Assembly: GCF_051903065.1 (NCBI RefSeq)
Contig: NZ_CP178439.1
DNA length: 64,000 nucleotides
Source of the DNA: Escherichia coli
GTDB taxonomy: Bacteria > Pseudomonadota > Gammaproteobacteria > Enterobacterales > Enterobacteriaceae
Reading direction: 5' to 3' (one strand)
Under the pieces are notes generated by a model. That model was not told the DNA's origin. It saw only the letters and a program-made list of their open reading frames with translations, and ran no database searches. The position numbers were made by a program, and so were the translations under genes. Positions 12,413 to 59,202 of this stretch are shown here, piece by piece (the stretch's first letter is position 1; the number at the start of each line of letters is the position of its first letter).

Positions 12413-12442
12413 AGTAAATATCTTCAAGCAAAAACAATTAAA

Positions 12443-12471: not shown

Positions 12472-12829
12472 ATTGTATGCCTTAAGTAAACAAATGAGGT
12501 TATGACTTAATGAGTTCATCACTGTGCTGCAAATTTTGGTTTTATAATTAATATGGCTTAAAAACAGTGACATAATTACAAATCGCATTTAGGTTGTGTA
12601 CGCATTAAGTAAACAAAATTTATAACATCAATACTGACTTTATAAGATGAAATTCACGTAAATTACATTTTTGTTTACCAAAGGTAATCAAAGGAGCGCG
12701 GCATTATTAGTGAAAACAGATCACTGGTGTCATATTGCATACAAAACTTAATATCCTTTAATCATTCTTCTAAAAGTTTAATATTAACGCTTTGGTTTAT
12801 GAAAATTTATCCAATTTGCTCACCGAAGA

Positions 12830-15800: not shown

Positions 15801-16410
15801 TCGCCAAACTGGTGTTCTGTCCTCATGCTGGCCTTCAGTTCTGGGCTGGGTTGCTATCTCTTGCTCCCATAATGCGAAATGTATCTGCTGATACAGATTA
15901 ACGTCATATTCCTGTATGCCGGTCTGCCGACACCAGTGCTTGGGCTATTTTCGGTCATAACAAGACCTGGCGAGAGATTTACTCAGGGCGTGGTGTGACT
16001 GAGCAGCAGCTGGGGCACTGTCATCCGCTTGCAAATTTAACCCCCTTAATCGCCAAACTTGGGTTTTGTCCTGATGCTGGCCTTCCGTTCTGGGCGGGGT
16101 TGCTATCACTTGCTCCCATCATGCGAAAAGTGCCTGCTGATACAGATTAACGTCATATTCCTTCATGCCGGTCTGCCGACACAAATGCACGGGCTTTTTT
16201 CGGTCCTTACAATACCGGGCAGGAGATTTAATCAGGGCGTGGTGTGACTGAGCAGCAGCTAGGACACTGTCAGCCGCTGGCAGATTTAACCCCCTTAATC
16301 GCCACACTGGGGTTGCCTCCTGAAGTTGGGTTTCAGTTCTGGGCTAGGTTGCTAACTCTGCTCCCATAATTCGTAGTGGGCCTACTCAAGAGATTAACAC
16401 CTCATATCTT
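12830..16410. repeat. Tandem array of about 15 units of about 249 bp, including a near-identical 756-bp (three-unit) duplication
   Basis: Anchor CAGATTTAACCCCCTTAATCGCCA recurs at about 12836, 13072, 13321, 13579, 13828, 14077, 14335, 14584, 14824, 15072, 15306, 15534, 15782, 16032 and 16281; track ORF pairs 12997..13230 / 13753..13986 and 13484..13687 / 14240..14443 are identical. Confidence 0.9.
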
Positions 16411-16711
16411 TAGACTGGACTGACGACAACGATTCACAGTTAGGAAACGTAAATCAGCACACCGGTGAGATAGATTTTAGGGTCTAAGCAAGAAATAGGG
16501 TAGGCGTGAAGATTCATTAATGGAGCTCATAACGTCAAAGCGTAGAGAAGTCGACAAGAATCGTGGTTTAAAAAGAATGAGCATTAGGTATGGACTAGAG
16601 AGTCTGAGCTCTCATCTGCAAGTTAAGCTCACAAAAAATCATAAAAAAGTAAACAAACATTAGCTTAGGATTGAAACAAAGGATAGAATTGTACGTATAA
16701 CAATGAAATGG

Positions 16712-16749
16712 ACGCATTATGCGTAAAGTTTACATATATGCGTAAAAGT
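16712..16749. promoter_or_regulatory. Palindrome ACGCATTATGCGT and nearby ATGCGTAAA half-site upstream of parA; candidate operator
   Basis: Perfect 13-bp palindrome about 55 bp before the parA start; type I ParA proteins with N-terminal extensions autoregulate at such sites. Confidence 0.3.
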
Positions 16750-16777
16750 CGGTTTTCAGTGCAAAAAGGTCATAACC

Positions 16778-37828: not shown

Positions 37829-39613
37829 ATGGGTAAGCCAACAGAAGAGCAAAGACCTGTTATCGAGAATGCTAGCGCAAACAATATGGTGATAGCAGCG
37901 CCTGGATCAGGCAAATCATTCACCATGATAGAAGCGGTTATATCGATTCTCAAAAAGTATCCATATGCAAGAATCGGGATGGTGACCTTTACTCGCGCTG
38001 CAACAAACGCACTTGCAGCAAAGTTACAAAAGCGATTGAGCAAGAAGGATCTTGACCGGGTGCTGGTGGATACTTTTCACGGACTCGTTAAGAAGCAACT
38101 GGACATGATTCGCTGGCCGGGAAAGATGTTGATAGGGCCAGCACAGAGATCTGTCATTCACCGGGCTTTGAAAGAATCCGGTGTAACGATGAAGTTTGCT
38201 GAAGCTGAATTCGTTATTGATGCTATCGGCAGAGAAATGGATACGGATGTGATTTCAGTTCGGCATAACAGACAACAGATCCATTTATTTAATACCTATC
38301 AGGCGTTATGCCAGAAAGACCATGTGGCGGACCTCAATGCTCTTTCAAAATTTGTTGTCGGTCAAATGCATTCGGGAAAAATGCGCACGTTAGATTTGAC
38401 ACATTTGATAGTAGACGAAGTTCAGGATACTGACTCTATACAATTCTCATGGATAGCATTGCATACAAGAGCTGGAGTCTATACGAGTATAGTTGGAGAC
38501 GATGATCAGGCCATCTACTCCTTCAGATCCTCAGGAGGAGTCAAAATATTTCAACAGTTTGAAAAACACTTCAGACCTAACATATTTTACTTAAACACAT
38601 GCTTTAGGTGTGAACCTGAAATTTTAGAGGTGGCCGGAGCACTGATAGGAAAGAATGTTTACCGTTATGCCAAAGAGTTACGCTCGGCAAAAAAGGGAGG
38701 AGGAAAGGTCACTTTTCGTTCATATGTAGATATGGAGGAACAGATACAGGGTATTTTAAGCCTTATAAATCAGGATCCACATGGATGGGCAATTCTAAGC
38801 CGCAATAATGCTCACTTGGATGAGCTAGAAAGTTTGATCGAACAGCCAGTAATTCGTTACGGAGGTAAATCATTCTGGGATGAAAAAGAAACAAGCGATG
38901 TGTTAAGCCTTATGGCCTTTTTCCGACAATCAAATGATCCTCGCTTAATGAAGAGAGTATTGGCATTGTTTGGAGAACAGGAATCAGTTTTGGATGAAGT
39001 GGCATTGAGTATGAGAGGAAGAAAAGTTACTTTTGGCGACCTTGCCATCCCGGAGGACAGTTCTCTCGAAACAAAAACATTACATTCAAACTTCGTGCGC
39101 TTTACCCAGGAAAGTACTGATAAAGTTGAGATAGCAAAACGTTTCGCCAACCTTACGAAATGGATGGAATCGTCGTCAATCAAGATGAGGAGTAATAAAG
39201 GTACAGCAACCTTAACAAAAATTGCTTTAGACACTTGTAAACAGTGGGCAGAAAAGACTGGTTGGATGAATATGATCAATCGTGCTGCTGCAATGTCATT
39301 AGGCCCTAGGAAGAAGGACGAGGAATACAGCCCAGAGAAAGTAGTCCTATCAACCTTGCATGGTTCAAAGGGTCTTGAGTGGAATAAAGTAATAATAATG
39401 AGTTGTAATGCGGATCAGATACCAAGTAAAAGATCAGTTGGGGAGGAGGCAATAGAAGAAGAAAGACGTTTGCTTTATGTTGGATTTACGCGTGCAGAAA
39501 AGCAACTTTTTGTAATGTGGTATGGTGACCCTTCTTTCTTTTTAAGAGAATGCAGTGAAGAAAAGATAAAAGAAGCAGCTAATATTCGAATTTCTCCAGT
39601 TTATACAGAATAA
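37829..39613 (+). CDS. UvrD/Rep-like superfamily 1 DNA helicase
   Basis: 594 aa; motif I AAPGSGKSFT, motif II LIVDEVQDT, motif VI VGFTRAEKQL. Confidence 0.8.
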   Translation: MGKPTEEQRPVIENASANNMVIAAPGSGKSFTMIEAVISILKKYPYARIGMVTFTRAATNALAAKLQKRLSKKDLDRVLVDTFHGLVKKQLDMIRWPGKMLIGPAQRSVIHRALKESGVTMKFAEAEFVIDAIGREMDTDVISVRHNRQQIHLFNTYQALCQKDHVADLNALSKFVVGQMHSGKMRTLDLTHLIVDEVQDTDSIQFSWIALHTRAGVYTSIVGDDDQAIYSFRSSGGVKIFQQFEKHFRPNIFYLNTCFRCEPEILEVAGALIGKNVYRYAKELRSAKKGGGKVTFRSYVDMEEQIQGILSLINQDPHGWAILSRNNAHLDELESLIEQPVIRYGGKSFWDEKETSDVLSLMAFFRQSNDPRLMKRVLALFGEQESVLDEVALSMRGRKVTFGDLAIPEDSSLETKTLHSNFVRFTQESTDKVEIAKRFANLTKWMESSSIKMRSNKGTATLTKIALDTCKQWAEKTGWMNMINRAAAMSLGPRKKDEEYSPEKVVLSTLHGSKGLEWNKVIIMSCNADQIPSKRSVGEEAIEEERRLLYVGFTRAEKQLFVMWYGDPSFFLRECSEEKIKEAANIRISPVYTE

Positions 39614-42410: not shown

Positions 42411-43469
42411 ATGTCTAATGCCGCTATGAAGTTAAATGAAACATCTTCTGATGCTTATGAAAAATTAGAAGCTCTTCTTTCCCCGGATGTTATAAAGTTA
42501 AAACATTATGTGGATAAAGGTGAGTATCTTTTAGTTCTAGCAAAGGACCTTTTTGGTATTCCAGAAATGGATCCAAAGATGGCTGTGCCTGTTTTCAAAA
42601 CTAAAACCTCGTATCGAGCTCCGCTGAACAAAGACTACATACCAAATCCCCGAATACTTGAACAAGTGGTTAAACTGCTTATCAGTCCGGATATAGATTT
42701 AAGTGTGTGTCTTAAAGGTGAGTCCGGTTCTGGCAAGACTGAAATGGTAATGTACATTAGCCACATGATGAATTGGCCGCTGACAATTAAGCAGATCAAC
42801 AGCAATATTCGAGTTGATGAGCTTGAAGGTGAGCGCAGTCTTAATGGTGGTAATACAGGTTTTGTACACAGCGATTTGGTAACGGGATTTCGTAATGGTC
42901 ACCTCATTCTTCTGGATGAAGTGGACAAAATCGATCCTGATACGGCAGCAAAACTTCACATGCCCATTGAACGTAAGCCCTGGTCACTCAGTGCTAATGG
43001 TGGTGAGGTTATAACTGCTAATGGCTACACGCGATTTATTGGTACTGCAAACACAAACATGAGTGGAGGCGCTCGCCGGTTCGTTTCTTCTCAACGTCAA
43101 GATGCAGCTTTTATAAAGCGGTTCTTGATAGTTGAAATGGAGAAGCCCGACAAAGTTGCTTTAACCAATGTGCTTACTAAACGATATAGCTCTTTGCCTT
43201 TTCAGGTCATTGAGAAGTTCGTAAGAGTAGCGATTGCAGTAAATGACTCTGGTACAGAAGACAGTGTGATGGATATTCGTCAATTAGTAGCTTGGGTTGG
43301 CACGTCGATGACGTTAAAAACCTTTAGTCTTCTTGACACTTTCAAAATAGCTTTTGCTTCTGCTTTACCTTTACATGTGGTCGATCTTGTTCTTCAAGCT
43401 ATAGATCTTTCTCTTGGCGAAGACAAGGATAAATCGCTGGAGTATTTCACAGCAAAAAAGTCGAGTTAG
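42411..43469 (+). CDS. AAA+ ATPase, MoxR/CbbQ/CobS-like (AAA_5 type)
   Basis: 352 aa; Walker A GESGSGKT; Walker B ILLDEVDK; sensor-like TANT. Confidence 0.8.
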   Translation: MSNAAMKLNETSSDAYEKLEALLSPDVIKLKHYVDKGEYLLVLAKDLFGIPEMDPKMAVPVFKTKTSYRAPLNKDYIPNPRILEQVVKLLISPDIDLSVCLKGESGSGKTEMVMYISHMMNWPLTIKQINSNIRVDELEGERSLNGGNTGFVHSDLVTGFRNGHLILLDEVDKIDPDTAAKLHMPIERKPWSLSANGGEVITANGYTRFIGTANTNMSGGARRFVSSQRQDAAFIKRFLIVEMEKPDKVALTNVLTKRYSSLPFQVIEKFVRVAIAVNDSGTEDSVMDIRQLVAWVGTSMTLKTFSLLDTFKIAFASALPLHVVDLVLQAIDLSLGEDKDKSLEYFTAKKSS

Positions 43470-43837
43470 ATGGGATTTGTTATGAAACCTCTGATATTTG
43501 TATCTCAGAGTTATCCCATCTTGAATTTAGTGCGTTTTTAAGTACGGATGGTGCTGCTACCATTGCTATAGCAAAAAACGGAACTAATTTTACTGGACTT
43601 ATGCAACTGAATAACGACTATTCTTTATTGTTTTATCATGATGGTAAAATAAATATGGAAGGTCTGATTAAACAAATGGAATTAAAAGGTTATATGTATC
43701 AGGGAGCAATGGGCAATGATGATGTTGTTGCTGAGTTTCCCGGTATTCTTTTAATTTCACCAGAGTAGCTTTAATATCAACCCTATCGGGAAATCTTTCC
43801 CGTTGGGGAGGGTTTCCCCTTTTTTTTGGAGAAACCC

Positions 43838-44965
43838 ATGACTTTAAATACTTCAATGCTTAACAAAGTATCTGCAAAACAAATCTCTGAGAATTTTGCA
43901 AAATCATATCCAGATTTACTGGAAGGTGCAGTTATAACAAAAATTGAAATAAGTGGCTGTCAAGGATCGCGTCGAACCGATAAAATCGATTTGTCTTATG
44001 ATGGAGATGATATTACGGATCAAAAAAGCGTATCTAAAAGCGAAGTACGCTGGATTGACATAAAAGCCCTTAGCTTCAAAAGTACGATTACCAGCAGAAT
44101 ATCAACTCTTTGCTCACGCTTGTGCATCCGCTATAGCAATATGTGGATTTTACCAGTATCCAGTATGGAAGAGTTTCTGGAAGGGGCCCAAGAGATTGAA
44201 CGAGAGTTTCAGGCAGGTATTCAAAACGTTGTAGACAATTATGAGATGCATATTGAGGCTGAAAAAAATAGAAGCCCAAGAATGTCTTCTTTGATTGATC
44301 AGTTGAAATTAACTAAAGATGATTTCATAAAATCCTTTAGATTTAATATTGCTCACTTTATTCCTTTTACGCCTATTAGCGTTGAAGGTGATGAAACCCA
44401 GGACTACTATCAGGAACAATTGATAACAGATCTGGCAGAAGAAGCAATGAAGGTTTATGAAAAAATTAGCAAAAATAACAATTTGCGCTCAAGTACTATT
44501 GACCGACTGAAGCAAATGCAAAATAAGATCATTAGCTTCATGTTTATACATAAAGAGGCGGCAGTACTTGCAGAAGCTATAAAACACATAATGAATAATT
44601 TACCTAAAGGTGCCATTTCTGAACCTCGCGACGTTGCGGTGTTACAGCAGTGGTTTTATTTCATGAGTGATGCTTCAATGTTAAAGCGTATTATTTCAGG
44701 AGAGCAAAAGGTTACTGACTGGTTGGAATCTATTACCAGATCATTTAATCAAAGCTCACAAACAGAACCGAACGCGCTACAGAACACAGGTATTGAAGCT
44801 ATTTTAGATTCAACAAATGTGTTCCAGGTTGAACCTGTCGTAGAGAACGATATAAATAACAGCACGTTTTCAAACACTGATCCTGTAGCTGAACCTGAGA
44901 AATCAGTTTCGCAACAGGAAGACAATGTTGAAAATGGTTTTGATATCGAGCTCAAAGGCTGGTAA
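43838..44965 (+). CDS. Hypothetical protein between the AAA+ ATPase and the vWA protein
   Basis: About 375 aa; ATG at 43838 after RBS GGAG (track start 43826 is a TTG). Confidence 0.55.
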   Translation: MTLNTSMLNKVSAKQISENFAKSYPDLLEGAVITKIEISGCQGSRRTDKIDLSYDGDDITDQKSVSKSEVRWIDIKALSFKSTITSRISTLCSRLCIRYSNMWILPVSSMEEFLEGAQEIEREFQAGIQNVVDNYEMHIEAEKNRSPRMSSLIDQLKLTKDDFIKSFRFNIAHFIPFTPISVEGDETQDYYQEQLITDLAEEAMKVYEKISKNNNLRSSTIDRLKQMQNKIISFMFIHKEAAVLAEAIKHIMNNLPKGAISEPRDVAVLQQWFYFMSDASMLKRIISGEQKVTDWLESITRSFNQSSQTEPNALQNTGIEAILDSTNVFQVEPVVENDINNSTFSNTDPVAEPEKSVSQQEDNVENGFDIELKGW

Positions 44966-45042
44966 CTGTTTGCTTTATTAAAAACCCCAGATGGGTACTT
45001 CACCATCTGGGTGAGTACCCCTTTTTTATAAAGAGGTATTCT

Positions 45043-47055
45043 ATGAAATTAGATCTTAAATCATCACCGCGCCATATTAAGCGTTTACAGAATATAGCAA
45101 AAGTCATTAGCGGCTTAGGCGATGTAAGAGTTGTAATAGACGACAATACCAAAGGACCGTATTTTGATCCTGTAAATAAAGTTTGTGTTTTACCAAACGG
45201 CGATTATAGCGATGATGACTTTGTCAGTCTGATTGAAGGTTTTACCTGTCATGAAGCTGGTCATGGTCGCTATACCGACAGCGAGGTTTACAGTGACGCC
45301 TTTAATAGTGTTCTCAAGTCATCTGAAGGGTTTACACGCTTCGATGACGGAATGAATGCAGAGTTTGAGAGCCTCGCTGAGAAACGTAAAGCTTATAGCA
45401 GGGCAAAACGTCTTACCGGGCTTATAAATCTGTTCGATGATGTACAGATGGAAGAGAAGGTTGGTAACGATTATCCGGATGCAAAGCGGCGGCTTGCAGC
45501 CACTTACGCACTGATGGTTAAAGCCGGAAGGATGACTCCTGATATATCTTCTCGTCCGGAAAATCCTGTCCTATTTATTGAGTGGTATCTGCTTAACTCA
45601 TTGCGAGTAAAAGTCCTTCAGCAGGCAGGTCACAAAGAAACACTCGATCCGTTTTTTGACTATGCCCAAAAGATACTTTCTCCAGTAATTTCTGATGTTG
45701 AGGAAATTTTTCATGATGCTCTTGGTTGTGAAAATACTCAGGGCTGTGAATCCCTTGCTCGTAAGACCCTGGCTCTTTTAGAGAGACTGCGGGATGAGGC
45801 AAGGGAACAACAGCAGCAGACAGAGCAGGAGGAGCAGGAGGCATATGATGAATCCGAGACCGAGACCGAGACCGATACCGAATCAGAAGATAAATCGCTT
45901 GAGTCGACTGATAGTCGTGAGGATGATTCTGAGGACGATAGTGAAGGTCAGGCAGATACTTCCGATAACTCTGATCTTGCTCAAGAGGGATGTTCTGAGC
46001 CTTCAGAACTTGCTGAAGATAACGAGGGAAATAATGAACCCACCGGTGGCAATCCCACAGGTGATAACATTATTGAAGACGATACTGATGCGATTAACCC
46101 TTCCGAGAGTGAATCAGATGAAGCCAGTTCGACTAACGTTGAAGATGAAAGTAACTTTTCATCGGCTCAATGGGAGATACTGGCAGATTTGTTGGATGCC
46201 TTTCTTGGCAGTGATGAGGATAGCGAAGATTATCACGATGCTTTGGCTAAAGAGATTGAAGGTATTGCATCAAAAGTATCCGATGACGTGAAAGCCGAAT
46301 TCGGTGCTTCTGAATGGGATATCCCTGATCTCCTTATCGATTTGAATGTTTACAATGAGGCTTTGTCTCTGAGTCATTCAATCGGTAGCGACTTGTCTGT
46401 TTTACAGCAGGTTAAAATGCGTGGCCGAAACAAAACTCATGAGCGTGGAATTACCTTCGATGGAAATCGATTAATTCTGTCACCAATGGGAGTTCGTGAT
46501 GTCTTCAGAGCTCAAAGCGAATCTAAAAATAGAGGGCATGTTGGCCTCGTATTAGTTCGTGATATTTCAGCGTCAATGGCTAATGATGAAAGATATATTC
46601 ATGCCATTAAGTCAGATCTTGCTTTATCGATGGCCGCTGAAAGTTTGTCAAAAATGCATGTCTCCAATATAGTCTTTCCCTTCAAGGAAAGTGAATTTGA
46701 GATTATCAAAACGTTTGATCAAAGCGTTGAGGAATCTCTATCGAAATTCACTCTTGGATGTAAGGGTTATTATACCCCTACGGGATCGGCTTTAATGGCA
46801 GCTGTTGATCTGTTACTTGACAGCCAATTCGATAGGAAAATAATTTTTCTTATAACTGATGGTTATCCGAATAAATCGGAATTTACTATCGGCGAAGTTA
46901 TGGAAAAGGCTAAATGTAATGGAATAGAAATCGTTGGTGTTGGTATTAAGACTGATGAAATAATTGGTTTTGAAACGGACACTTTCGTAACAGTTGATGA
47001 TACTTCTTTATTGTCTATTGAAGTCAGTAAGCTAGTTCATCAAATACTTTCTTAA
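45043..47055 (+). CDS. von Willebrand factor A (MIDAS) domain protein with N-terminal HExxH and an acidic linker
   Basis: 670 aa; HEAGH near residue 70; long D/E/S/T-rich linker; C-terminal vWA with D-x-S-x-S (DISAS), Thr (YTPTGS) and Asp (ITDGYP). Confidence 0.8.
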   Translation: MKLDLKSSPRHIKRLQNIAKVISGLGDVRVVIDDNTKGPYFDPVNKVCVLPNGDYSDDDFVSLIEGFTCHEAGHGRYTDSEVYSDAFNSVLKSSEGFTRFDDGMNAEFESLAEKRKAYSRAKRLTGLINLFDDVQMEEKVGNDYPDAKRRLAATYALMVKAGRMTPDISSRPENPVLFIEWYLLNSLRVKVLQQAGHKETLDPFFDYAQKILSPVISDVEEIFHDALGCENTQGCESLARKTLALLERLRDEAREQQQQTEQEEQEAYDESETETETDTESEDKSLESTDSREDDSEDDSEGQADTSDNSDLAQEGCSEPSELAEDNEGNNEPTGGNPTGDNIIEDDTDAINPSESESDEASSTNVEDESNFSSAQWEILADLLDAFLGSDEDSEDYHDALAKEIEGIASKVSDDVKAEFGASEWDIPDLLIDLNVYNEALSLSHSIGSDLSVLQQVKMRGRNKTHERGITFDGNRLILSPMGVRDVFRAQSESKNRGHVGLVLVRDISASMANDERYIHAIKSDLALSMAAESLSKMHVSNIVFPFKESEFEIIKTFDQSVEESLSKFTLGCKGYYTPTGSALMAAVDLLLDSQFDRKIIFLITDGYPNKSEFTIGEVMEKAKCNGIEIVGVGIKTDEIIGFETDTFVTVDDTSLLSIEVSKLVHQILS

Positions 47056-47126
47056 TAAACTCTACCCAATCGGGGCAAAAGGCCCCGGTGGGTCTTTTTG
47101 CTCCATGAAGGAATAAGGAGCAAAAT

Positions 47127-47348
47127 ATGACTCAGATAAAAACTTACCGTGTAGAACATGAAAAAGTCGGTGCGATGCATAAAGTCCGTATTTTCGGACG
47201 TGTTGGTGAAGTTATAAGCAATGATAGCCCTCAGGAAAGAATCTTCCGCGAAGTCACTATAGCGGAGGGTAATAGCCAGCAGGCTGCGTTACTTGTAGAT
47301 AACTACATACAGCGTCTTGAGAATAATGGCTTCACGACTGAAGCATAA
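47127..47348 (+). CDS. Hypothetical small protein
   Basis: 73-aa ORF with RBS AAGGAG upstream, between two hairpins. Confidence 0.45.
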   Translation: MTQIKTYRVEHEKVGAMHKVRIFGRVGEVISNDSPQERIFREVTIAEGNSQQAALLVDNYIQRLENNGFTTEA

Positions 47349-47461
47349 ATGTTGAGGGCCCCCGGGCCCTCTTTCTTAAATTCTGCGTTGTGGGTTTCTC
47401 CCTGTCTTCTGCACCGCAGAAGGCATTGAGAAACTCACAATGCCAGATAAGAGAGATCATC

Positions 47462-48694
47462 ATGACTTATGCATCCCCGGCTCTTCGTCGTAATCCACAG
47501 GAAGTATCTGAACACTTTATTAAACTCGTTCATGCTCGAATTGCTGAAGTGTCTGGCTGGAAGTATATATTCGAAAGAATACCTGCTTTCAAAGACGCTT
47601 GTGCAAAAGCCCCGAGCCAGGTTCCTTGCCCGTTTACTGGCGCAGGGAAATCGAAGTTTCGTTTCCGACAAAAAGACCTTTATACCGGATGTGCGATCCA
47701 TAATGACTTTCCGGTAAATGAGTTTTGCGACGGAATTGATGTTCTGGCGAAATATTATGAATTAAGTAAAACGCAGACTTGCAAAAAGATTCTCTCAGAT
47801 TTTTTCGGGATGGATCTGCATGCTCCGTTAACTGACGCCGACATTGAAAATGAACGACGCTATAAATCAGCAGTTCGTGCCACAGAAACTCTTGACCGAG
47901 AGGAAGTGGCAAAGCGAATGCGAAAACTTGATGTGATGTATCACTATACCGGTGAAATCAAGCCTAATACTCCTGTTGCTTTGTACCTCCGTAATCGTGG
48001 GATCTCCCGCTTACTGAGTCACTTACCAAAGGATTTAGGCTTTAATAACCGGATCTACTATTGGGATAAAGATAAGCAGAAATCGATTATCTATCCGGGA
48101 ATGATTGCGATCTATCGTGACACCCGAGGTCGGCCTCTGACTATTCATAGAACATACGTAGACAAAAATGGTGATAAGGCACCTGTAGAAAATCCAAAGC
48201 TGATGATGAAGCCTCCTGCCGATATGACAGGTGGCTCAATTCAGTTGTTTGACCCTCACTATGATTCAGGTAGTTCGACCTGGACACTGGGAGTGGCTGA
48301 AGGGATCGAGAACGCGCTTTCTGTTGTAGAAGCGACTTCAACACCATGCTGGGCAGCCAGCTCCGCATGGTGCCTTGAAAACGTTACTGTTCCTGATTTT
48401 TTACTGCCTCCGCCGGATGTAAAATCTATAAACTTTTATATCTGGGCGGATAAGGATATTGCTAACTCACAAGGCACTCGTGCCGGTATTGAAGCTGCTC
48501 AGCGACTTCAAAGCCGCATGGTTGAGTTTTTGGCTAAACGATATCCCGCATCAAAGCTGACAATTGAAGTCTTCGAACCAGCACAAGATATTCCTGATGG
48601 GAAAAAGGGTATCGACTGGAACGATGTTCTCCAGTTAACAGGGCAGGATGGATTCCCGATTCACTGGGCTCCTGAATGTCTTAATCAGCTGTAA
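47462..48694 (+). CDS. TOPRIM-domain primase-like protein with N-terminal Cys-rich zinc-ribbon-like region
   Basis: CPFTGAGKSKFRF...GCAIHND Cys cluster; TOPRIM-like EGIENALSV (Glu) and IWADKD (DxD). Confidence 0.55.
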   Translation: MTYASPALRRNPQEVSEHFIKLVHARIAEVSGWKYIFERIPAFKDACAKAPSQVPCPFTGAGKSKFRFRQKDLYTGCAIHNDFPVNEFCDGIDVLAKYYELSKTQTCKKILSDFFGMDLHAPLTDADIENERRYKSAVRATETLDREEVAKRMRKLDVMYHYTGEIKPNTPVALYLRNRGISRLLSHLPKDLGFNNRIYYWDKDKQKSIIYPGMIAIYRDTRGRPLTIHRTYVDKNGDKAPVENPKLMMKPPADMTGGSIQLFDPHYDSGSSTWTLGVAEGIENALSVVEATSTPCWAASSAWCLENVTVPDFLLPPPDVKSINFYIWADKDIANSQGTRAGIEAAQRLQSRMVEFLAKRYPASKLTIEVFEPAQDIPDGKKGIDWNDVLQLTGQDGFPIHWAPECLNQL

Positions 48695-48964
48695 CAACGA
48701 TAACTCCCCCGCTTTTTGCGGGGGGGGTTATCTTATCAATATTATATTTTAAAATTGTATTGATAAGATAACCGCTTTCCTTCGTGATAATTACCTGCCT
48801 TTAAGGTCTTTTCACGGCTGAGATGCTTGCTCAGTTAAATAAATGTGCGGTACTACTGGCTATGGTCGGTTGTATGACATGGTTATTCCATAAACTATTA
48901 AAACCCATAACGGGAGTATTACCGTTATGGTGATGCTCGTCGTTTTACATCGGAGAGCATTTTA

Positions 48965-49486
48965 ATGAATTTTCAAATTAACGAAGTTTTTAATAAATTT
49001 GCTGCTGTTATAAAATCGCGCATCGTCAATGAACCATCGTCATGCTATTTGCTGCATGATAATGAGATAGATATAACGATTTTGAAACATAGCATATTAG
49101 AAAATGACAGAAACCTGTTGTACGTAGTTCGTCCTTCAGGAACGTGTTTGTTGCGTTGTGACAAATATTTCTATCCGAAATATTATCTTCGTTGCCGTGG
49201 AGATTATAAGTCATTCATATATGTCCATCTTGATCTACATAGTGGTGAAGCTAAAGAAATCACATGGGAGCAAGCAGACGATATGCTGTCTAGTCCAGGA
49301 AAACCCCCATTAAAAGGGAATCTTGGACGATTTGAGTATATAAAAGTTGTGGTTGAGGACCTTCGTATTCGAGGTTACGCTGATTATCTTCCTGCGTATA
49401 ATCTTGATGACCTTCGCCGTTTTGCCTTACAGGACGACCGCCCATCCCTTGTCAGATACATTGACAATGTCATGGCAACGGTCTGA
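48965..49486 (+). CDS. Hypothetical protein
   Basis: 173-aa ORF; no recognisable motif. Confidence 0.5.
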   Translation: MNFQINEVFNKFAAVIKSRIVNEPSSCYLLHDNEIDITILKHSILENDRNLLYVVRPSGTCLLRCDKYFYPKYYLRCRGDYKSFIYVHLDLHSGEAKEITWEQADDMLSSPGKPPLKGNLGRFEYIKVVVEDLRIRGYADYLPAYNLDDLRRFALQDDRPSLVRYIDNVMATV

Positions 49487-49564
49487 TTGATTGCTAATTG
49501 ATTTACATATTTTCCCTGATGGCCAACCTGCATCAGGGAGGCCTCAATAACGAATGGAGGCTGT

Positions 49565-50443
49565 ATGAAGTTAGCTACGGACCTGGTAAAAGCTATTTTG
49601 ATTAGAAATGGCGTTGAACCAGTAAATATAAGCGAATCATCTAAGTTATCTTTGAAACAACCACTGACAGAACTTAAATTCAGTTTATATTTGCGAACTG
49701 AGCATTTATCTCACTTCCTACCCGGTTATGTTTATTCTATAAAAGAATGTCCACTGTCATATGACATCGGGATCGAAATTCAGAAAATCTTCGAAAGTTT
49801 ACATTTGTTAAACGAAGAATTTGAATCCCTCGGTTTTGTTTCTGTATGGATAGAAATGCATCAAAGCATTTTTGAACAAAGTCGGTTTAAGAAAAGTAAC
49901 TTTACTTTTCGGGAGGAAGAGGTCGAGCTTGCTAAAGGGCTTGTTTGTTCTCACAATTCACAAATAAGTAATGCGGCTTATTTCTGGCTTCAGCACTTTG
50001 AGGAGTTTATGATTTATGTTCGTAATAAGCTTATCGACCTCTTTCGAGAGGCCTATGACCTGATCCTTGGAATGCAGCAAGTATTTTTCATTCGGGAAAA
50101 GGAAGAGCTGTTGAAAACTATAAGTTATGGCGATGAGCTGTATGAGGTGAAATTCATGGCGGCTGAGCTTTACTCTATCGAACAGAACTTAAAGTGTTCT
50201 GAATCGATAAGTACAAAATCTCAAGCTTCGGCATATATTAACCGCATCCGTGAGTTTGTGCGTTCGGGGTGGAGGCAGGGCTATATAGTCTGCCATCATA
50301 AGCGAAGTAATCAAATTTCATCATTGTCATTACCGATGTACTTGAAAGATACGTCAGGCCGAAGTGCTCGAAAGCGAGTAAAACGTCTTATATCTTCTAC
50401 AGTTTGTGGTAGAAATAAAGATTTAGGTCTTACAGATTTTTAA
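49565..50443 (+). CDS. Hypothetical protein, possible distant member of the tandem paralogue family
   Basis: 292 aa; N-terminal pattern LVKAILIRNGV resembles the other members; hairpins on both sides. Confidence 0.5.
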   Translation: MKLATDLVKAILIRNGVEPVNISESSKLSLKQPLTELKFSLYLRTEHLSHFLPGYVYSIKECPLSYDIGIEIQKIFESLHLLNEEFESLGFVSVWIEMHQSIFEQSRFKKSNFTFREEEVELAKGLVCSHNSQISNAAYFWLQHFEEFMIYVRNKLIDLFREAYDLILGMQQVFFIREKEELLKTISYGDELYEVKFMAAELYSIEQNLKCSESISTKSQASAYINRIREFVRSGWRQGYIVCHHKRSNQISSLSLPMYLKDTSGRSARKRVKRLISSTVCGRNKDLGLTDF

Positions 50444-50513
50444 TTAAATTATACCCATGTGGGGATCACACCCCATATGGGAGTGATCCCTTTTTTTATT
50501 GAGAGAGGATCAC

Positions 50514-51269
50514 ATGAAAATTATCGAAAAAATCATTAATGCCTTTTTGGTTGTTCAACATAAAAAAATACAGGTTAAAAACATTACATTTTTAGACAAT
50601 GGGCAGGGCATGTTCTCTGGTATGTCTTTTGATGCTGATGTTTCACTGGAGTTTATGTATGAATCAGCAAAAGCATATAGTTCTTGTTTCTGTGATATTC
50701 CCTTTCCAGGTTTTGAAGATGCAAATCTGGAGGAAATTACGAAATTTCAATTAGATGCTCTGAAGCAAAGAAAGAATCATTCTTTCTTTGTTAACCATTT
50801 GAGGTTTCCTATAGTTTTAAGGGAAGGGTGCAAAATCGAAAGAGGAGAAGTCTATTCAATTTCGAATTGCACTTATAATAAAGAAAGATTGCAGTATCTT
50901 TTTTCTCAGGATATTTACGGTAAGTTGTATAATTCCTTAGAGAAAGAATTAAGCTCGTTTTTCTCATTTATCAATGTTGAGGTGCACGAGTTGTTAAAAG
51001 ATGCTGTATGCTTTGCATTAAAAATCCTGAATAAGATATCTTTGGATACACCTGAAAGACTTATTAAAGCTTTTAATTATCGTGACTGGTATTGTAGTTA
51101 CGATGTTGAGCTTTTTAGGAAAGGCTTACCTGGTCATATTCTGGAAGAGCTCATTGCTCCAGATATCTTACTTTCAGACCTTAACGGTTGTAGAAAAATA
51201 CTTAGAAATGCAAAACGATTTCTAAATGGACATACACAAACCAATTGTGTTTATATTAAATATGAATGA
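50514..51269 (+). CDS. Hypothetical protein, possible distant member of the tandem paralogue family
   Basis: About 251 aa; ATG at 50514 after RBS GAGAGG; N-terminal IEKIINAFLVV pattern. Confidence 0.5.
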   Translation: MKIIEKIINAFLVVQHKKIQVKNITFLDNGQGMFSGMSFDADVSLEFMYESAKAYSSCFCDIPFPGFEDANLEEITKFQLDALKQRKNHSFFVNHLRFPIVLREGCKIERGEVYSISNCTYNKERLQYLFSQDIYGKLYNSLEKELSSFFSFINVEVHELLKDAVCFALKILNKISLDTPERLIKAFNYRDWYCSYDVELFRKGLPGHILEELIAPDILLSDLNGCRKILRNAKRFLNGHTQTNCVYIKYE

Positions 51270-51517
51270 TGGTTGGGGCCTGTTGATACCTCACACTCAG
51301 CTAAGTTGATGTCTGACAAAGAAATTAATAACCGAAGTGACTTGAAGAATTTTTCAAAGGTCTTTTTCAAAGAGTGTTTAAGTTCTGGTAAGTCGGAATA
51401 TGAAAACCATCTTAGTGAAAAAGAACATGCGCTTCGCTATAATTATTAATTAAAATTATTTTCTCCCATAGGGATTTCTCCCTATGGGAGAAATCCCTCT
51501 ATTAAGAGGGTATTGAA

Positions 51518-52438: not shown

Positions 52439-53357
52439 TCTAACCCATCCGGGAACCTGCTTCCCGGTGGGAAGCACTTCCTTTTTAGTCATGAGGTAGT
52501 GTAAATGTTTAAAGAATCTGACCACGTGGAATTTGTTAGTGCCTTTCTTTATCAAAATTTAGGCCTTAATGTTTCCGCTGACGATATAACCGTTCAATTA
52601 TCTGATACTTCGTTCGACAAAGTAACCTTTGATTACGATGTAGATATCGATAATTTAAATTGTATGTTGGATCTCTACATATCTGAGCTAATAAAGCACA
52701 ACGCATCTTACTCCGATTCTATTCTTTTGAAACAAAAAATAATTTATTTTCTTGGAGTATTTAAGAATTTCGGATTTTTTACGTTTGATATTCGCGGATA
52801 TAGTAATACTTTAAGCCCAGTTAAAGTTATTGATATTGTTTCAATGATTATTAATGACTGTGAAGAGTTATCTAAAGCTAATTCTTCTACTGATGCTATA
52901 AGAAATCTTTATCTCGATAAAATGAAGGTGGATGGGAAAGTGTTAGTTGCGAAATTTGCACTTAAACAGTTTTTTCATTCCGACTTTGGTGACTTTATCT
53001 CATTTGTCGAGAAAAGAATTACAGATTGTCTTAATGAAACTTTAAGGATTATCAAAGCTGTTGAACATGGCTTTGTACGTGTAGGGCAGCATAAGATTAA
53101 TCGCCGTATTAATGATGACTTAAAGTTATGCATTGATTTCAATACTGATGATTATCCGGCAAATATGCCAGATATATATATTAAGTTTAACGATACATTT
53201 GATGGGAACGGGGCGTTATATTGTGACAATGATGCCCTCATATCCCTCTATACCGATGTTGCTTCAATTATCAATGTGCCGGTGATGATGGAAGTAAGAT
53301 TGATCAATAAAAGAGGGCGTGTTGTCTGTGATTCTTCGCATTCAACTTACGTATCTC

Positions 53358-54414
53358 GGCTTTGTTGAATAAATCGAACTTTTGCTGAGTTGAAGGATCA
53401 GATCACGTATCTTCCCGACAACGCAGACCGTTCCGTGGCAAAGCAAAAGTTCAAAATCACCAACTGGCCCACCTACAATAAAGCCCTCATCAACCGTGGC
53501 TCCATAACTTTCTGGCTGGATGATGAAGCTATTCAGGCCTGGTATGAGTCAGCAACACCTTCTTCACGAGGCAGACCTCAGCGCTATTCTGACCTTGCCA
53601 TCACGACTGTGCTGGTCATTAAACGCGTATTCAGGCTGACCCTGCGCGCTGCGCAGGGCTTTATTGATTCCATTTTTTCTCTGATGAACGTTCCGCTACG
53701 CTGCCCGGATTACAGCTGTGTCAGCAGGCGGGCAAAGTCGGTTAATGTCAGTTTCAAAACGCCCACCCGGGGTGAAATCGCACACCTGGTAATTGATTCC
53801 ACCGGGCTGAAGGTCTTCGGTGAAGGCGAGTGGAAAGTCAAAAAGCATGGCCAGGAACGCCGCCGTATCTGGCGTAAGCTGCATCTCGCCGTTGACAGTA
53901 AAACACATGAAATCATCTGCGCTGACCTGTCGCTGAACAACGTTACGGACTCAGAGGCCTTCCCCGGGTTAATCCGGCAAACCCACCGGAAAATCAGGTC
54001 AGCCGCCGCCGATGGCGCTTACGATACCCGGCTATGTCACGATGAACTGCGGCGTAAGAAAATCAGCGCGCTTATCCCTCCCCGAAAAGGTGCGGGTTAC
54101 TGGCCCGGTGAATATGCAGACCGTAACCGTGCAGTGGCTAATCAGCGAATGACCGGGAGTAATGCGCGGTGGAAATGGACAACAGATTACAACCGTCGCT
54201 CGATAGCGGAAACGGCGATGTACCGGGTAAAACAGCTGTTCGGGGGTTCACTGACACTGCGTGACTACGATGGTCAGGTTGCAGAGGCTATGGCCCTGGT
54301 ACGAGCGCTGAACAAAATGACGAAAGCAGGTATGCCTGAAAGCGTGCGTATTGCCTGAAAACACAACCCGCTACGGGGGAGACTTACCCGAAATCTGATT
54401 TATTCAACAAAGCC
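53358..54414 (+). mobile_element. IS903-like insertion sequence (IS5 family), complete, 1057 bp
   Basis: 18-bp inverted repeats GGCTTTGTTGAATAAATC at 53358 and GATTTATTCAACAAAGCC ending 54414; perfect 9-bp direct repeat ACGTATCTC at 53349-53357 and 54415-54423. Confidence 0.9.
53435..54358 (+). CDS. tnpA: IS903 transposase
   Basis: VAKQKFKITNWPTYNKALINRGSITFWLDDEAIQAWY matches the IS903/IS102 transposase as I remember it; GTG start gives 307 aa. Confidence 0.85.
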   Translation: MAKQKFKITNWPTYNKALINRGSITFWLDDEAIQAWYESATPSSRGRPQRYSDLAITTVLVIKRVFRLTLRAAQGFIDSIFSLMNVPLRCPDYSCVSRRAKSVNVSFKTPTRGEIAHLVIDSTGLKVFGEGEWKVKKHGQERRRIWRKLHLAVDSKTHEIICADLSLNNVTDSEAFPGLIRQTHRKIRSAAADGAYDTRLCHDELRRKKISALIPPRKGAGYWPGEYADRNRAVANQRMTGSNARWKWTTDYNRRSIAETAMYRVKQLFGGSLTLRDYDGQVAEAMALVRALNKMTKAGMPESVRIA

Positions 54415-54680: not shown

Positions 54681-55637
54681 ATGACACATTCATCTGATGA
54701 TAAAAACTATGTCCGAGCAGTTCTGAGTTATCTTGGCATAGATTTTGATGAGGCGGATATAGTATTAAGTGTTTGCCATTGTCAAAGTGACGAGCTTTCT
54801 TTTACCTGTAATATCAAAGCTATTGAACTCAAGAATGCTGTTGATTTATATGTCGATAGTATCTCTGAGAATGAAATAGAAGCTTTAAACAGAGAATCTT
54901 TAAAATCGCGACTCTGTTACTTTCTTGAGGTGTTTGACGCAGTCTCTGGTCAGTACCTTGAAATTTCAGGAAAACACTTTGCAACTAGTCGTTTTGAATA
55001 TGATGATGTTTGTAGTGAAGTTCTTAGCATGTCTAATGATGTTTCTCAGTCGAAAGGTTATGACCGGGATGAATATAACAGACTGATGCAGGTTGATGGT
55101 CAGGTTATGATTGCCCGTTTTGCTTTGCAACAGTTCTGGGATACTCATTTTATTGGACTAATAACATTTGTATCTGAGTCTATAACATCGAGCCTCTATA
55201 AAGCTTATGAAACTTTTAGTGATATTAGTTTGGCTTGCTATAAACTGAGTGAATATTCTTATTCACGCTCTATCAACAGTGAATTGACCCTTAATATTTC
55301 ACTTAAAGAAAATGACTTCTGTGAGGACCTATCTGATTGCTATATGGAAGATGAGGCTTTACCTTCTGGTAGGGTAATTTCTCGACGCAACAATGACTCC
55401 ATAATAAGTATTTATGAGAGCTATGCTGCGGCTTCTTATATTCCGATGATTGCATCTTTGGAAGTCGTTGATGAATACGGCGAAGTGGTTACTGACCTCT
55501 GCCATACCGTTTATGTTTCAGAGTTAACCGGTGGGCGGATTAAAATCCACGACCGTAATGACTTAGTATCTGAAGTTTTCGATAACCTAAGAAATTTAAA
55601 TCTTGCAGTTGGAGATTCAGTTTCACAAGCTGCTTGA
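54681..55637 (+). CDS. Hypothetical protein, intact paralogue of the IS903-disrupted gene
   Basis: About 318 aa; aligns along its length with the 52505 product; same upstream context GAGGTAGTGTA(A/T)ATG. Confidence 0.6.
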   Translation: MTHSSDDKNYVRAVLSYLGIDFDEADIVLSVCHCQSDELSFTCNIKAIELKNAVDLYVDSISENEIEALNRESLKSRLCYFLEVFDAVSGQYLEISGKHFATSRFEYDDVCSEVLSMSNDVSQSKGYDRDEYNRLMQVDGQVMIARFALQQFWDTHFIGLITFVSESITSSLYKAYETFSDISLACYKLSEYSYSRSINSELTLNISLKENDFCEDLSDCYMEDEALPSGRVISRRNNDSIISIYESYAAASYIPMIASLEVVDEYGEVVTDLCHTVYVSELTGGRIKIHDRNDLVSEVFDNLRNLNLAVGDSVSQAA

Positions 55638-58221: not shown

Positions 58222-59202
58222 ATGAGCCTGGAGAAACGTATGAGTTATGACGATTTGCCCTATTTTCGTGACCAGATTCTGGAACGTATCGACTCGCTTA
58301 AGTGTTTTCTTTCGAACACCCCCCCGCTGATGGCAAACCTGATGACTGTCTCCACCGTATCTCGAACAGAAGAGCGACTGAAGCAGGTTAAACCCATCAG
58401 GGTTAGTGTTAAAGACGATGCTTCGGTTGAGGAAATTATTCAGGCACTTACTGACATCTGTGTGGATGACATAGAGTCATTAAGTCATGATTCCACCAAA
58501 GTGACCACTAAATACCCGGGTCTTATCATTGTCCCAGAAAGAGCAGATCTTCTCGAAAGCTTGATCACATCTATAAATGAAGCAAAAAATGATTTTGCTG
58601 CGGCAATGAGGCGTATCGATAATAAAAAGAATGTCCGTTTTGATAAAGTGCACAAGAAGCTCCCGGGCCTTGTCGCTATGCACTCAACAAGAAATGTCCT
58701 TTTCATCAAGTCCCAGCTTAAAAAAGTTACTTTTTCATGGCGGCTAAACCGAAACCAGGAAGTTAAAACAGCAGAGCAACTTGTGAGTTTGTTGGAGCGC
58801 AGGAGAGCCTCAGAAGTAAAAAATGTAGCAACTACCAATTTGAATGTCGTGTCTAATATCGATAAGGCTTTACACCGTCTTGAATTTCACCCACTGAAGC
58901 AGGGCGAATCTTATCGCCTTTGTCGAACTAACTCTTTCCCTGTTCCGATTGCTCACATTTTTGCATTTAGGCCTGAAGGGCAGGAACGAAACGGGAATAA
59001 ATATGCTGAGACTGATTATTCAGTAGTAAAAGCATCCTTGCCCATTTTCGCAGCAGGCAACATACCTCAATTAAAAACGCTCTCTGACTGGGCTCCTGAA
59101 AACAGCCAGGGCCCGTCCAACCAACGGAAGCTGAGCCTGAAATATACAGAACTCGTGCCGGGGGCTGAGCTGGGCATTTTCATTGTCAGCCCCGAAAATT
59201 AA
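58222..59202 (+). CDS. tus: Tus-like replication-terminus-binding protein
   Basis: RFDKVHKKLPGLVAMHSTRNVL aligns with the E. coli Tus segment [21 protein letters not shown] as I remember it; 326 aa against about 309 for Tus. Confidence 0.55.
   Translation: MSLEKRMSYDDLPYFRDQILERIDSLKCFLSNTPPLMANLMTVSTVSRTEERLKQVKPIRVSVKDDASVEEIIQALTDICVDDIESLSHDSTKVTTKYPGLIIVPERADLLESLITSINEAKNDFAAAMRRIDNKKNVRFDKVHKKLPGLVAMHSTRNVLFIKSQLKKVTFSWRLNRNQEVKTAEQLVSLLERRRASEVKNVATTNLNVVSNIDKALHRLEFHPLKQGESYRLCRTNSFPVPIAHIFAFRPEGQERNGNKYAETDYSVVKASLPIFAAGNIPQLKTLSDWAPENSQGPSNQRKLSLKYTELVPGAELGIFIVSPEN

What the first reader, a model, noticed from the sequence alone, without database searches (positions are those of the whole stretch)
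47462..48694. TOPRIM primase-like protein with a Cys-rich zinc-ribbon-like N-terminus
EGIENAL and IWADKD match TOPRIM acidic motifs, and CPFTGAGKSKFRF...GCAIHND resembles primase zinc-binding regions. Conjugative plasmids often carry primases for priming in the recipient; this one sits among unknown genes far from the transfer genes seen here.
Basis: partly seen in the sequence, partly recalled or inferred. Interest (0 to 1): 0.4.

Follow-up and report, generated by a model that had tools for sequence, protein, structure and literature searches.

The report
IncHI plasmid DnaG-type primase gene
This gene on a widespread IncHI2 resistance plasmid very probably encodes a small DNA primase of the phage P4 alpha / plasmid TraC type; that is an ordinary thing for a conjugative plasmid to carry, except that its zinc-finger-like domain has lost most of its zinc-binding residues.

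Summary
It is identical to the RefSeq "toprim domain-containing protein" found on more than 1,100 IncHI2 plasmids.

All computational tests point to a DnaG-superfamily primase of the mobile-element type:
- Pfam finds DUF7146 plus Toprim_3, and PHROGs finds "DNA primase".
- A profile alignment to the phage P4 alpha primase domain gives 99.7% probability.
- An AlphaFold model (pLDDT 91) has DnaG, T7 gp4, T4 gp61 and Twinkle primases as its top structural matches.
- The catalytic acids E280, E283, D330, D332, D385 and D388 and the clade-specific D-W-N-D motif are conserved.
- No OLD-type or defence-system profile matches.

First, the N-terminus is homologous to the primase zinc ribbon but is not Cys-rich. 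The four zinc-ligand positions read C-T-H-V instead of C-[C/H]-C-C, yet this is the most constrained part of the protein. Second, the gene is not isolated. It lies 7.8 kb downstream of the transfer helicase gene trhI, at the end of a gene order (AAA ATPase, DUF3150, VWA, small ORF, Toprim) that recurs across distant conjugative elements.

Enzyme activity is untested. This is a new member of a known kind, of modest interest.

The parts
47462..48694 (+). CDS of the 410-aa Toprim primase-like protein (identical to WP_000220381.1)
   Evidence: ORF list. 100% identity to over 1,100 IncHI2 plasmid records annotated 'toprim domain-containing protein'. dN/dS about 0.10 against the IncHI1 orthologue.
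47621..47737 (+). Zinc-ribbon-like segment (aa 54-92) with degenerate ligands: C56, T59, H80, V85 in place of C-[C/H]-C-C
47918..48220 (+). DUF7146 (aa 153-253). I infer that it corresponds to the N-terminal subdomain of the primase RNA-polymerase domain. It contains the conserved HRTY and G-x-K-A...PK segments.
48287..48649 (+). Toprim_3 domain (aa 276-396)
   Evidence: Pfam E=2e-12. Fold matches.
48299..48319 (+). EGIENAL motif, with the Toprim catalytic Glu E280 and also E283. Counterpart of EGYATA in P4 alpha and TraC.
   Evidence: E280, G281 and E283 are invariant in alignment A1. Aligned to EGYATA of P4 alpha and R751 TraC.
48440..48457 (+). IWADKD, holding the Toprim D-x-D metal-binding motif (D330, D332)
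   Evidence: D330 invariant and D332 at least 90% conserved. Kept in all but a few of the 212 sampled family members.
48614..48625 (+). D385-W-N-D388, the 'DaN-' motif typical of mobile-element DnaG-like primases
   Evidence: D385 and W386 invariant; N387 and D388 at least 90% conserved. The motif is described as a shared derived character of Toprim_2/3/4 primases in PMC5512222.
48704..48726 (+). G+C-rich terminator-like hairpin just after the stop codon
   Evidence: Pattern scan: 9 pairs, 8 of them G-C. A consensus match only.
47127..47348 (+). 73-aa ORF of unknown function. An ORF of 61-97 aa occupies the same place in IncHI1, IncHI1B, Vibrio and Marinobacter relatives, but sequence similarity between the distant ones is weak.
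   Evidence: Annotated in the reference and in relatives. HMM hits only in close IncHI-like relatives. No Pfam, PHROG or PADLOC hit.
45043..47055 (+). 670-aa VWA-domain protein (CobT-like), the upstream neighbour in the conserved gene order
   Evidence: Pfam VWA, TIGR02442, PHROG CobT-like, synteny.
43838..44965 (+). DUF3150 protein, part of the conserved gene order
   Evidence: Pfam E=2.3e-23. Synteny. The fold search was uninformative.
42411..43469 (+). AAA_5 (MoxR / CobS-like) ATPase, first gene of the conserved order
   Evidence: Pfam AAA_5 E=5e-28. PHROG 249, CobS-like. Synteny.
37829..39613 (+). trhI, a UvrD-like conjugal transfer helicase; the nearest named transfer gene, co-directional with the Toprim gene
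   Evidence: RefSeq annotation. Pfam UvrD-helicase and UvrD_C.

Best explanation
The gene encodes a stand-alone DnaG-superfamily primase of the mobile-element type, the same kind as phage P4 alpha, IncP TraC and IncI Sog.

Architecture. An N-terminal ribbon-plus-helices module descends from the primase zinc-binding domain. A helical linker joins it to a two-part RNA-polymerase domain made of DUF7146 and Toprim.

Inferred mechanism. The Toprim acids E280/E283, D330/D332 and D385/D388 hold Mg2+ and catalyse the joining of ribonucleotides. Basic residues in DUF7146 (the HRTY and G-x-K-A...PK segments) bind template and NTP. The ribbon module positions single-stranded template for primer initiation.

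Inferred role. The enzyme makes RNA primers on single-stranded plasmid DNA, so that the host polymerase can build the complementary strand. This would happen after conjugative transfer, during plasmid replication, or both, and would reduce dependence on the host's own primosome.

Shown here: family membership, fold, conservation of catalytic residues, and purifying selection. Inferred only: primer synthesis itself, its template preference, and where and when it acts.
For: - Families: Pfam DUF7146 plus Toprim_3. PHROG 510 'DNA primase', E=1.4e-27 over aa 54-395.
- P4 alpha: hhalign to residues 4-303, probability 99.7%, E=1.3e-26, with ribbon, EGYATA and D-x-D in register.
- TraC: the R751 TraC catalytic core aligns at E=6.8e-5 with EGYATA in register.
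- Model: pLDDT 91.4.
- Active site: the catalytic acids are invariant or nearly so in alignment A1, and are kept in all but a few of 212 sampled family members.
- Clade marker: the DaN- motif of mobile-element primases (PMC5512222) is present as D385-W-N-D388.
- Selection: dN/dS is about 0.10.
- Distribution: the nearer relatives that retain a canonical ribbon are named primase by their sources. Phage relatives are annotated as primase, and in the Stx-type phages the gene lies next to a helicase gene. Most plasmid relatives are on conjugative plasmids (2,862 of 3,370 records).
- Precedent: no zinc-ribbon domain is detected by Pfam in R751 TraC, the homologue of the classical RP4 primase. A canonical zinc ribbon may therefore not be needed in this clade.
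Against: - No biochemical or genetic data for this protein or any IncH orthologue turned up in the searchable literature.
- Three of the four zinc-ligand positions carry a non-canonical residue (C-T-H-V). They vary among orthologues: IncHI1B has C-T-H-H and P0019 has none. In DnaG and T7 gp4 the zinc domain is needed for template-directed initiation (from my own knowledge, not tested here).
- The gene lies about 111 kb from mobI and the relaxase gene, so it is not delivered early.
- In SXT, deleting neighbouring module genes (s067, s068, s070) reduced transfer by 10-fold or less (PMC2791158). I did not establish which SXT gene, if any, is the Toprim orthologue.
- NCBIfam has no model that names the protein.
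Confidence: 0.7

Rival explanations
1. The protein is a working primase, but its real job is inside the conserved AAA (CobS/MoxR-like), DUF3150, VWA (CobT-like), small ORF, Toprim gene set. That set would be a DNA-processing unit of MOBH elements acting in replication restart or recombination-dependent replication. This would fit the ssb, recT and exo genes that precede it in some relatives. On this reading it does not prime the transferred strand in recipients. The ATPase-VWA pair would assemble, load or regulate the primase.
For: - The same gene order on the same strand occurs in IncHI2, IncHI1, IncHI1B, V. cholerae pW7G (29% identity), a Marinobacter plasmid (24%) and the P0019 contig.
- DUF3150 and VWA genes lie upstream on the same strand in 23 of 80 loci from different species, and an AAA ATPase gene was also detected in 9 of those.
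- In Marinobacter the set directly follows ssb, recT and lambda-exo.
- A Shewanella locus with a gene order resembling what I recall of SXT/R391 elements has DUF3150, VWA, RadC, Toprim.
- The gene is far from oriT.
Against: - Most loci with a full upstream flank lack the module: about 31 of 46. The IncC plasmid pMR0211 and a Pseudomonas plasmid carry the Toprim gene without it nearby. The link is therefore frequent but not obligatory.
- There is no evidence of physical or functional interaction.
- DUF3150 gave only generic helical-bundle fold matches.
- Synteny within related conjugative backbones may reflect shared descent and not joint function.
Confidence: 0.2
2. The protein is a primase descendant that can no longer start primers by itself, because its zinc-binding domain has lost zinc. 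It would then act as an ssDNA-binding or primer-extending accessory factor, or would need a partner to supply template recognition.
For: - The ligand columns are C-T-H-V in this protein, and are not conserved among orthologues.
- About 35 of 212 sampled relatives share the C-[T/S]-H-x state, so it is a stable lineage trait.
Against: - The ribbon segment is the most constrained part of the protein. Its dN is 0.061 against 0.10-0.17 elsewhere, and it is 51-85% identical among IncHI orthologues.
- All catalytic residues are kept.
- No zinc-ribbon domain is detected by Pfam in R751 TraC, the homologue of a proven primase.
- C77 or H77, and C89 or H85, lie near the ribbon in some orthologues and might replace the lost ligands. 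This could not be tested here.
Confidence: 0.1
3. The protein is a Toprim enzyme that is not a primase: an OLD, Gabija or PARIS-like nuclease, an RNase M5-like enzyme, or an anti-defence factor.
For: Toprim domains occur in nucleases and topoisomerases as well as primases. The RefSeq name is only the generic 'toprim domain-containing protein'.
Against: - PADLOC gives no significant hit. The only entry is a marginal match (E=0.0038) to a DnaG-like model.
- No ATPase domain is present.
- The primase-clade DaN- motif is present.
Confidence: 0.04

Closest known systems
Phage P4 alpha protein, N-terminal primase domain (residues about 1-300)
   Same: The order is the same: G-W-x-x-I helix, ribbon, helices, pre-Toprim subdomain, then Toprim_3. 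The profile alignment gives 99.7% probability with the EG..A, D-x-D and DWND-equivalent motifs in register.
   Different: P4 alpha has a full C-C-C-C zinc ribbon (PF08273, E=1.9e-18) and is fused to a D5_N / SF3 helicase and an origin-binding region, 777 aa in all. The IncHI2 protein is a 410-aa stand-alone enzyme with C-T-H-V at the ligand positions, a longer helical linker, and EGIENA in place of EGYATA.
IncP TraC primase (R751 TraC; the RP4 TraC1 type) and, by literature, IncI Sog
   Same: Both are encoded on conjugative plasmids. Both have a Toprim_3 catalytic core with the EG..A motif, aligned at E=6.8e-5. Both lack a Pfam-detectable canonical zinc ribbon. PMC5512222 groups these enzymes with stand-alone Toprim primases of conjugative elements.
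   Different: TraC is a 1,448-aa polyvalent protein carrying ArdC-N and a metallopeptidase domain. It is known to be transferred to recipients (PMC5512222). The IncHI2 protein has none of these extra domains, and its transfer is untested.
Stand-alone Zn-ribbon + DUF7146 + Toprim_3 proteins of IncC plasmids, a Shewanella locus resembling an SXT/R391-type ICE, and other MOBH elements
   Same: The DUF7146 + Toprim_3 core is shared at 27-35% identity. Many sit downstream of the same DUF3150 and VWA genes.
   Different: These relatives keep C-H-C-C or C-C-C-C ligands and hit PF08273. The IncC protein is 575 aa with a roughly 250-aa insert after the ribbon.
Bacterial DnaG, and the T7 gp4 and T4 gp61 primases
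   Different: There is no detectable sequence similarity outside the ribbon. There is no DnaB-binding C-terminal domain and no fused helicase.

Membership tests
Mobile-element DnaG-like Toprim primases (Pfam Toprim_3 clade: P4 alpha / TraC / Sog) | Toprim fold with a catalytic Glu and a D-x-D metal site | tested here: met
   E280 and D330 are invariant and D332 is at least 90% conserved. They are kept in all but a few of 212 relatives. Toprim_3 E=2e-12. Fold confirmed.
Mobile-element DnaG-like Toprim primases (Pfam Toprim_3 clade: P4 alpha / TraC / Sog) | E-G-x-x-x-A motif (EGYATA in the classical members) | tested here: met
   EGIENA aligns column for column with EGYATA of P4 alpha and R751 TraC. 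It is a variant, with Glu at +3.
Mobile-element DnaG-like Toprim primases (Pfam Toprim_3 clade: P4 alpha / TraC / Sog) | The 'DaN-' motif before Toprim strand 4 (PMC5512222) | tested here: met
   D385-W386-N387-D388. D385 and W386 are invariant in A1. The criterion is quoted.
Mobile-element DnaG-like Toprim primases (Pfam Toprim_3 clade: P4 alpha / TraC / Sog) | Primase-type subdomain directly before the Toprim domain, the two together forming the RNA-polymerase domain | tested here: met
Mobile-element DnaG-like Toprim primases (Pfam Toprim_3 clade: P4 alpha / TraC / Sog) | Template-dependent oligoribonucleotide synthesis | not testable with these tools
   This needs an enzyme assay or dnaG(ts) complementation. 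No published data were found.
Primase-helicase zinc-ribbon subgroup (PF08273: P4 alpha, T7 gp4, IncC and SXT-like stand-alone primases) | Four Cys/His zinc ligands in two knuckles (C-x2-[C/H] ... C-x2-C) | tested here: not met
   The segment is homologous and aligns, but the ligand columns read C56-T59-H80-V85. There is no PF08273 hit. Whether C77 and C89 compensate could not be tested.
Bacterial chromosomal DnaG | CHC2 zinc finger (PF01807) and a C-terminal DnaB-binding domain | tested here: not met
   Neither domain is found. There is no PDB sequence match to DnaG. Only the fold is shared.
OLD-family and defence-system Toprim nucleases (OLD, GajA, AriB, JetD) | Toprim joined to an ABC/AAA ATPase or other defence module, with a match to the defence profiles | tested here: not met
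   No ATPase domain in the protein. No PADLOC hit apart from a marginal DnaG-like one. No such structures appear among the listed fold matches.
Conjugatively transferred primases (TraC1, Sog) | Protein is exported to the recipient through the type IV secretion system | not testable with these tools
   No recognisable signal can be scored here. The gene is about 111 kb from mobI and the relaxase gene, so early action in the recipient would require such transfer.

The most novel reading that the evidence does not exclude
IncHI plasmids and a wider uncultured clade carry a primase subfamily whose template-recognition domain has given up the canonical four-ligand zinc site (C-[T/S]-H-x) yet is the most constrained part of the protein. 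This primase would work as the output of a conserved CobS/MoxR-like ATPase, DUF3150, CobT-like VWA, small-protein module found across MOBH conjugative elements. An AAA+/VWA chaperone pair would then load, activate or metallate a plasmid primase, which would be an undescribed accessory DNA-processing system of conjugation.
Probability: 0.1. Interest if true: 0.6.

Novelty: new member of a known kind. Interest (0 to 1): 0.3.

Why it matters
IncHI2 plasmids are major carriers of mcr-1 and other multidrug resistance genes. The reference record matched here carries mcr-1.1.

If the protein is an active primase, IncHI plasmids join IncP, IncI and IncC among plasmids that bring their own priming enzyme. 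This bears on host range and on how the plasmid establishes itself after transfer.

The ligand-poor but highly constrained ribbon offers a natural test of how far a DnaG-type primase depends on zinc.

The recurrent link to a CobS/CobT-like ATPase-VWA pair and DUF3150 gives a concrete handle on genes that have stayed unexplained in SXT, IncC and IncHI backbones.

No member of this Toprim_3 primase family was found among solved structures by sequence or profile search.

Tried and rejected
- PDB searches with the sequence and with a profile found no related solved structure.
- NCBIfam gave no naming model.
- hhalign against T7 gp4 recovered only the ribbon. The relation to T7 and DnaG therefore rests on fold alone.
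- Literature searches for DUF7146 returned 0 papers, and for DUF3150 one irrelevant preprint.
- Searches combining IncHI2 or R27 with primase found nothing on this gene.
- The Rts1 deletion study does not mention a primase.
- The R27 Tra2 paper (PMC145343) is not held.
- RP4 (BN000925) and R64 (AP005147) are not in the plasmid collection, so R751 TraC was used and Sog was not tested.
- The idea that the module is an anti-phage defence system found no PADLOC support.
- The idea that the downstream ~300-aa hypothetical genes form a paralogous array got only one weak pair by BLAST.
- The leading-region explanation was rejected because of the distance to mobI and the relaxase gene.
- I recall from the classical plasmid-primase surveys of the 1980s that IncH plasmids were not among the primase-positive groups. 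I could not verify this, so I do not rely on it.

Full report
**Where the window comes from.** A 1.5-kb stretch around the finding is 100% identical to IncHI2 plasmids of Escherichia, Salmonella and Enterobacter. There are 1,122 matching records, and 1,117 of them are at least 99% identical. In the reference record NZ_CP022165.1 (IncHI2A, MOBH relaxase, MPF_F, 233 kb) the ORF is WP_000220381.1, "toprim domain-containing protein".

**Observation.** The ORF runs from 47462 to 48694 on the + strand and encodes 410 aa. All four quoted motifs are present:
- CPFTGAGKSKFRF at aa 56-68
- GCAIHND at aa 76-82
- EGIENAL at aa 280-286
- IWADKD at aa 327-332

An upstream GTG at 47390 would extend the frame, but the ATG at 47462 is the better start. 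RefSeq uses it. Orthologues begin with the same residues. A purine-rich AAGAGAG lies just upstream. A terminator-like hairpin at 47354-47371 lies just upstream of the GTG. The gene is real and constrained: dN/dS against the 78%-identical IncHI1 orthologue is about 0.10.

**What family it belongs to.**
- Pfam finds DUF7146 (aa 153-253, E=2.2e-19) and Toprim_3 (aa 276-396, E=2e-12). PHROGs places aa 54-395 in phrog_510 "DNA primase" (E=1.4e-27). NCBIfam has no model for it.
- Homologue searches return IncHI-type orthologues at 40-100% identity. More distant relatives carry PF08273 (primase-helicase zinc ribbon) plus DUF7146 plus Toprim_3, and many are named primase by their sources. The exhaustive search counts 3,623 cluster representatives at E<=0.001.
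- A profile of 26 members (A1) aligns to residues 4-303 of phage P4 alpha, the classical primase domain, with probability 99.7% and E=1.3e-26. Ribbon aligns to ribbon, EGYATA to EGIENA, and D-x-D to D-x-D.
- The same profile aligns to the C-terminal catalytic core of IncP plasmid R751 TraC (residues 1159-1326, E=6.8e-5), again with EGYATA in register.
- Iyer et al. (PMC5512222) state that Pfam Toprim_2/3/4 are the active Toprim domains of DnaG-like primases of mobile elements, united by a D-aromatic-N-acidic motif. They also state that stand-alone versions occur in conjugative elements. Here that motif is D385-W-N-D388, invariant or nearly so.

**Structure.**
- An AlphaFold2 model built on A1 is confident: mean pLDDT 91.4, pTM 0.79.
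- In Foldseek against the PDB, the 17 matches with E<=0.001 are all DnaG, T4 gp61 or T7 gp4 primases. Further T7 gp4 chains and then Twinkle follow.
- The whole chain, not just the Toprim part, is therefore primase-shaped.
- The result named as a refutation, a match to an OLD-type family, did not occur. PADLOC returned only a marginal hit (E=0.0038) to a DnaG-like model.

**The ribbon is remodelled.**
- In relatives the two zinc knuckles read CP-x-[C/H]-G ... C-N-x-C.
- In the IncHI2 protein the same columns hold C56, T59, H80 and V85.
- Among 212 sampled family members the ligand columns are C-H-C-C in 76, C-C-C-C in 17, C-P-C-C (an insertion variant) in 12, and C-[T/S]-H-x in about 35. This sample is biased towards relatives of the query.
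- Within IncHI-type orthologues the extra nearby Cys/His residues are not stable. Position 77 is C, H or S. Position 89 is C, V, I or S. P0019 has no Cys or His in the segment at all. A conserved four-ligand site therefore cannot be claimed.
- The segment is not decaying. It is the best-conserved part among orthologues (51-85% identity, against 16-82% for the linker and the N-terminus). It also has the lowest dN (0.061, against 0.10-0.17).
- No zinc-ribbon domain is detected by Pfam in R751 TraC. That TraC is a homologue of the experimentally established RP4 primase (established status from PMC5512222).
- I read this as a functional, remodelled template-handling domain. Its metal content is unknown.

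**Context.**
The gene lies 7.8 kb downstream of trhI, a UvrD-like transfer helicase gene and the last named gene of the Tra2 block.
- It sits in one co-directional string: three hypothetical genes, an AAA_5 ATPase (CobS/MoxR-like), a 57-aa ORF, DUF3150, a VWA protein (CobT-like), a 73-aa ORF, and then Toprim.
- The order ATPase, DUF3150, VWA, small ORF, Toprim recurs in IncHI1, IncHI1B Klebsiella plasmids (45% identity), V. cholerae pW7G (29%), and the metagenomic P0019 contig (41%). It also recurs in a Marinobacter MOBH plasmid (24%), where it follows ssb, recT and lambda-exo.
- I scanned 80 loci from different species with HMMs built from these examples. DUF3150 and VWA lie upstream on the same strand in 23 loci, including Chromatiaceae, Burkholderiales and several MAGs. 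Among loci with at least 6 kb of upstream flank the count is about 15 of 46.
- A Shewanella locus has DUF3150, VWA, RadC and Toprim followed by cargo genes. That order resembles what I recall of SXT/R391 elements.
- The link is not obligatory. IncC pMR0211 and a Pseudomonas plasmid carry the Toprim gene without the module next to it. In the Pseudomonas plasmid it sits between traU and traF.
- In SXT, deletions of s067, s068 and s070 in the corresponding region cost 10-fold or less in transfer (PMC2791158). I did not establish which SXT ORF is the Toprim orthologue.

**Position relative to oriT.** In the reference plasmid, mobI and the MobH relaxase gene lie at about 158-163 kb. The literature places these genes next to oriT in SXT and R27 (PMC10838148). 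The Toprim gene is at 46.7 kb, about 111 kb away on a 233-kb circle. It is thus not a leading-region gene. If the enzyme primes the incoming strand early, the protein itself would have to be transferred, as TraC1 and Sog are. Otherwise it acts later or in vegetative replication. None of this can be decided here.

**Mechanism proposed.** The protein is a stand-alone DnaG-type primase.
- Shown: homology, fold, an intact active-site constellation (E280/E283, D330/D332, D385/D388), and purifying selection.
- Inferred: Mg2+-dependent ribonucleotide polymerisation on single-stranded plasmid DNA; template and NTP contacts by the conserved HRTY and G-x-K-A...PK segments of DUF7146; and template positioning by the ribbon module.
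- I put 0.7 on "active primase acting on plasmid ssDNA".
- The alternatives, which are not all exclusive, are a role inside the ATPase-VWA-DUF3150 set (0.2), a primase that has lost self-sufficient initiation (0.1), and a non-primase Toprim enzyme (0.04).

**Comparison and novelty.** The closest characterised relative is the P4 alpha primase domain. Functionally the nearest are the plasmid primases TraC and Sog. Stand-alone Toprim primases of conjugative elements have already been described as a class, and the gene is annotated in over a thousand records. This is therefore a new member of a known kind. The points that go beyond the annotation are the specific assignment to the primase clade, the ligand-poor but constrained ribbon, and the recurrent neighbourhood. 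No solved structure of this family was detectable by sequence or profile.

**Dead ends.** The DUF3150 model (pLDDT 74) gave only helical-bundle matches. Literature searches on DUF7146, DUF3150 and IncH primases found nothing relevant. RP4 and R64 records were unavailable.

Noticed in passing
window 42411-48694: A co-directional gene order, CobS/MoxR-like AAA ATPase, DUF3150, CobT-like VWA protein, small ORF, Toprim primase. It recurs from IncHI plasmids to Vibrio and Marinobacter plasmids, and in 23 of 80 genome loci from different species. Its function is unknown. DUF3150 has no informative fold match.
   Followed up: partly
window 12413-16777: A 4.3-kb stretch between the trhC-like traC gene and parA has no ORF of 100 aa or more on either strand. 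It is filled by 249-bp tandem repeats: 12900-15330 (9.8 copies, 76% matches) and 15511-16370 (3.5 copies, 86%).
   Followed up: no
window 50499-51449: The gene here is split by a stop codon into ORFs of 256 aa and 58 aa. The matching CDS in NZ_CP022165.1 is a single 311-aa protein. This may be a pseudogene or a strain variant.
   Followed up: no
window 43000-50000: Terminator-like G+C-rich hairpins are over-represented: 17 found against 4.8 +/- 2.2 expected. They sit in nearly every intergenic gap of this gene string, for example at 43788-43818, 47069-47089, 47354-47371 and 48704-48726. No sigma-70-like promoter was detected directly upstream of the Toprim gene.
   Followed up: no
window 58222-59202: [quoted passage not shown] It is conserved at the same relative place in IncHI1B and in the P0019 contig (PF05472 Ter).
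   Followed up: no
window 52505-53368 and 54681-55637: Two hypothetical genes downstream of the primase gene encode distant paralogues (26% identity over 286 aa, E=8e-31). The other ~300-aa neighbours showed no BLAST-level similarity to one another.
   Followed up: partly
L003 7951-9675 (IncC plasmid pMR0211): The IncC homologue is a 575-aa protein with a canonical zinc ribbon (aa 36-74). A roughly 250-aa region with no Pfam match separates the ribbon from DUF7146 + Toprim_3.
   Followed up: no
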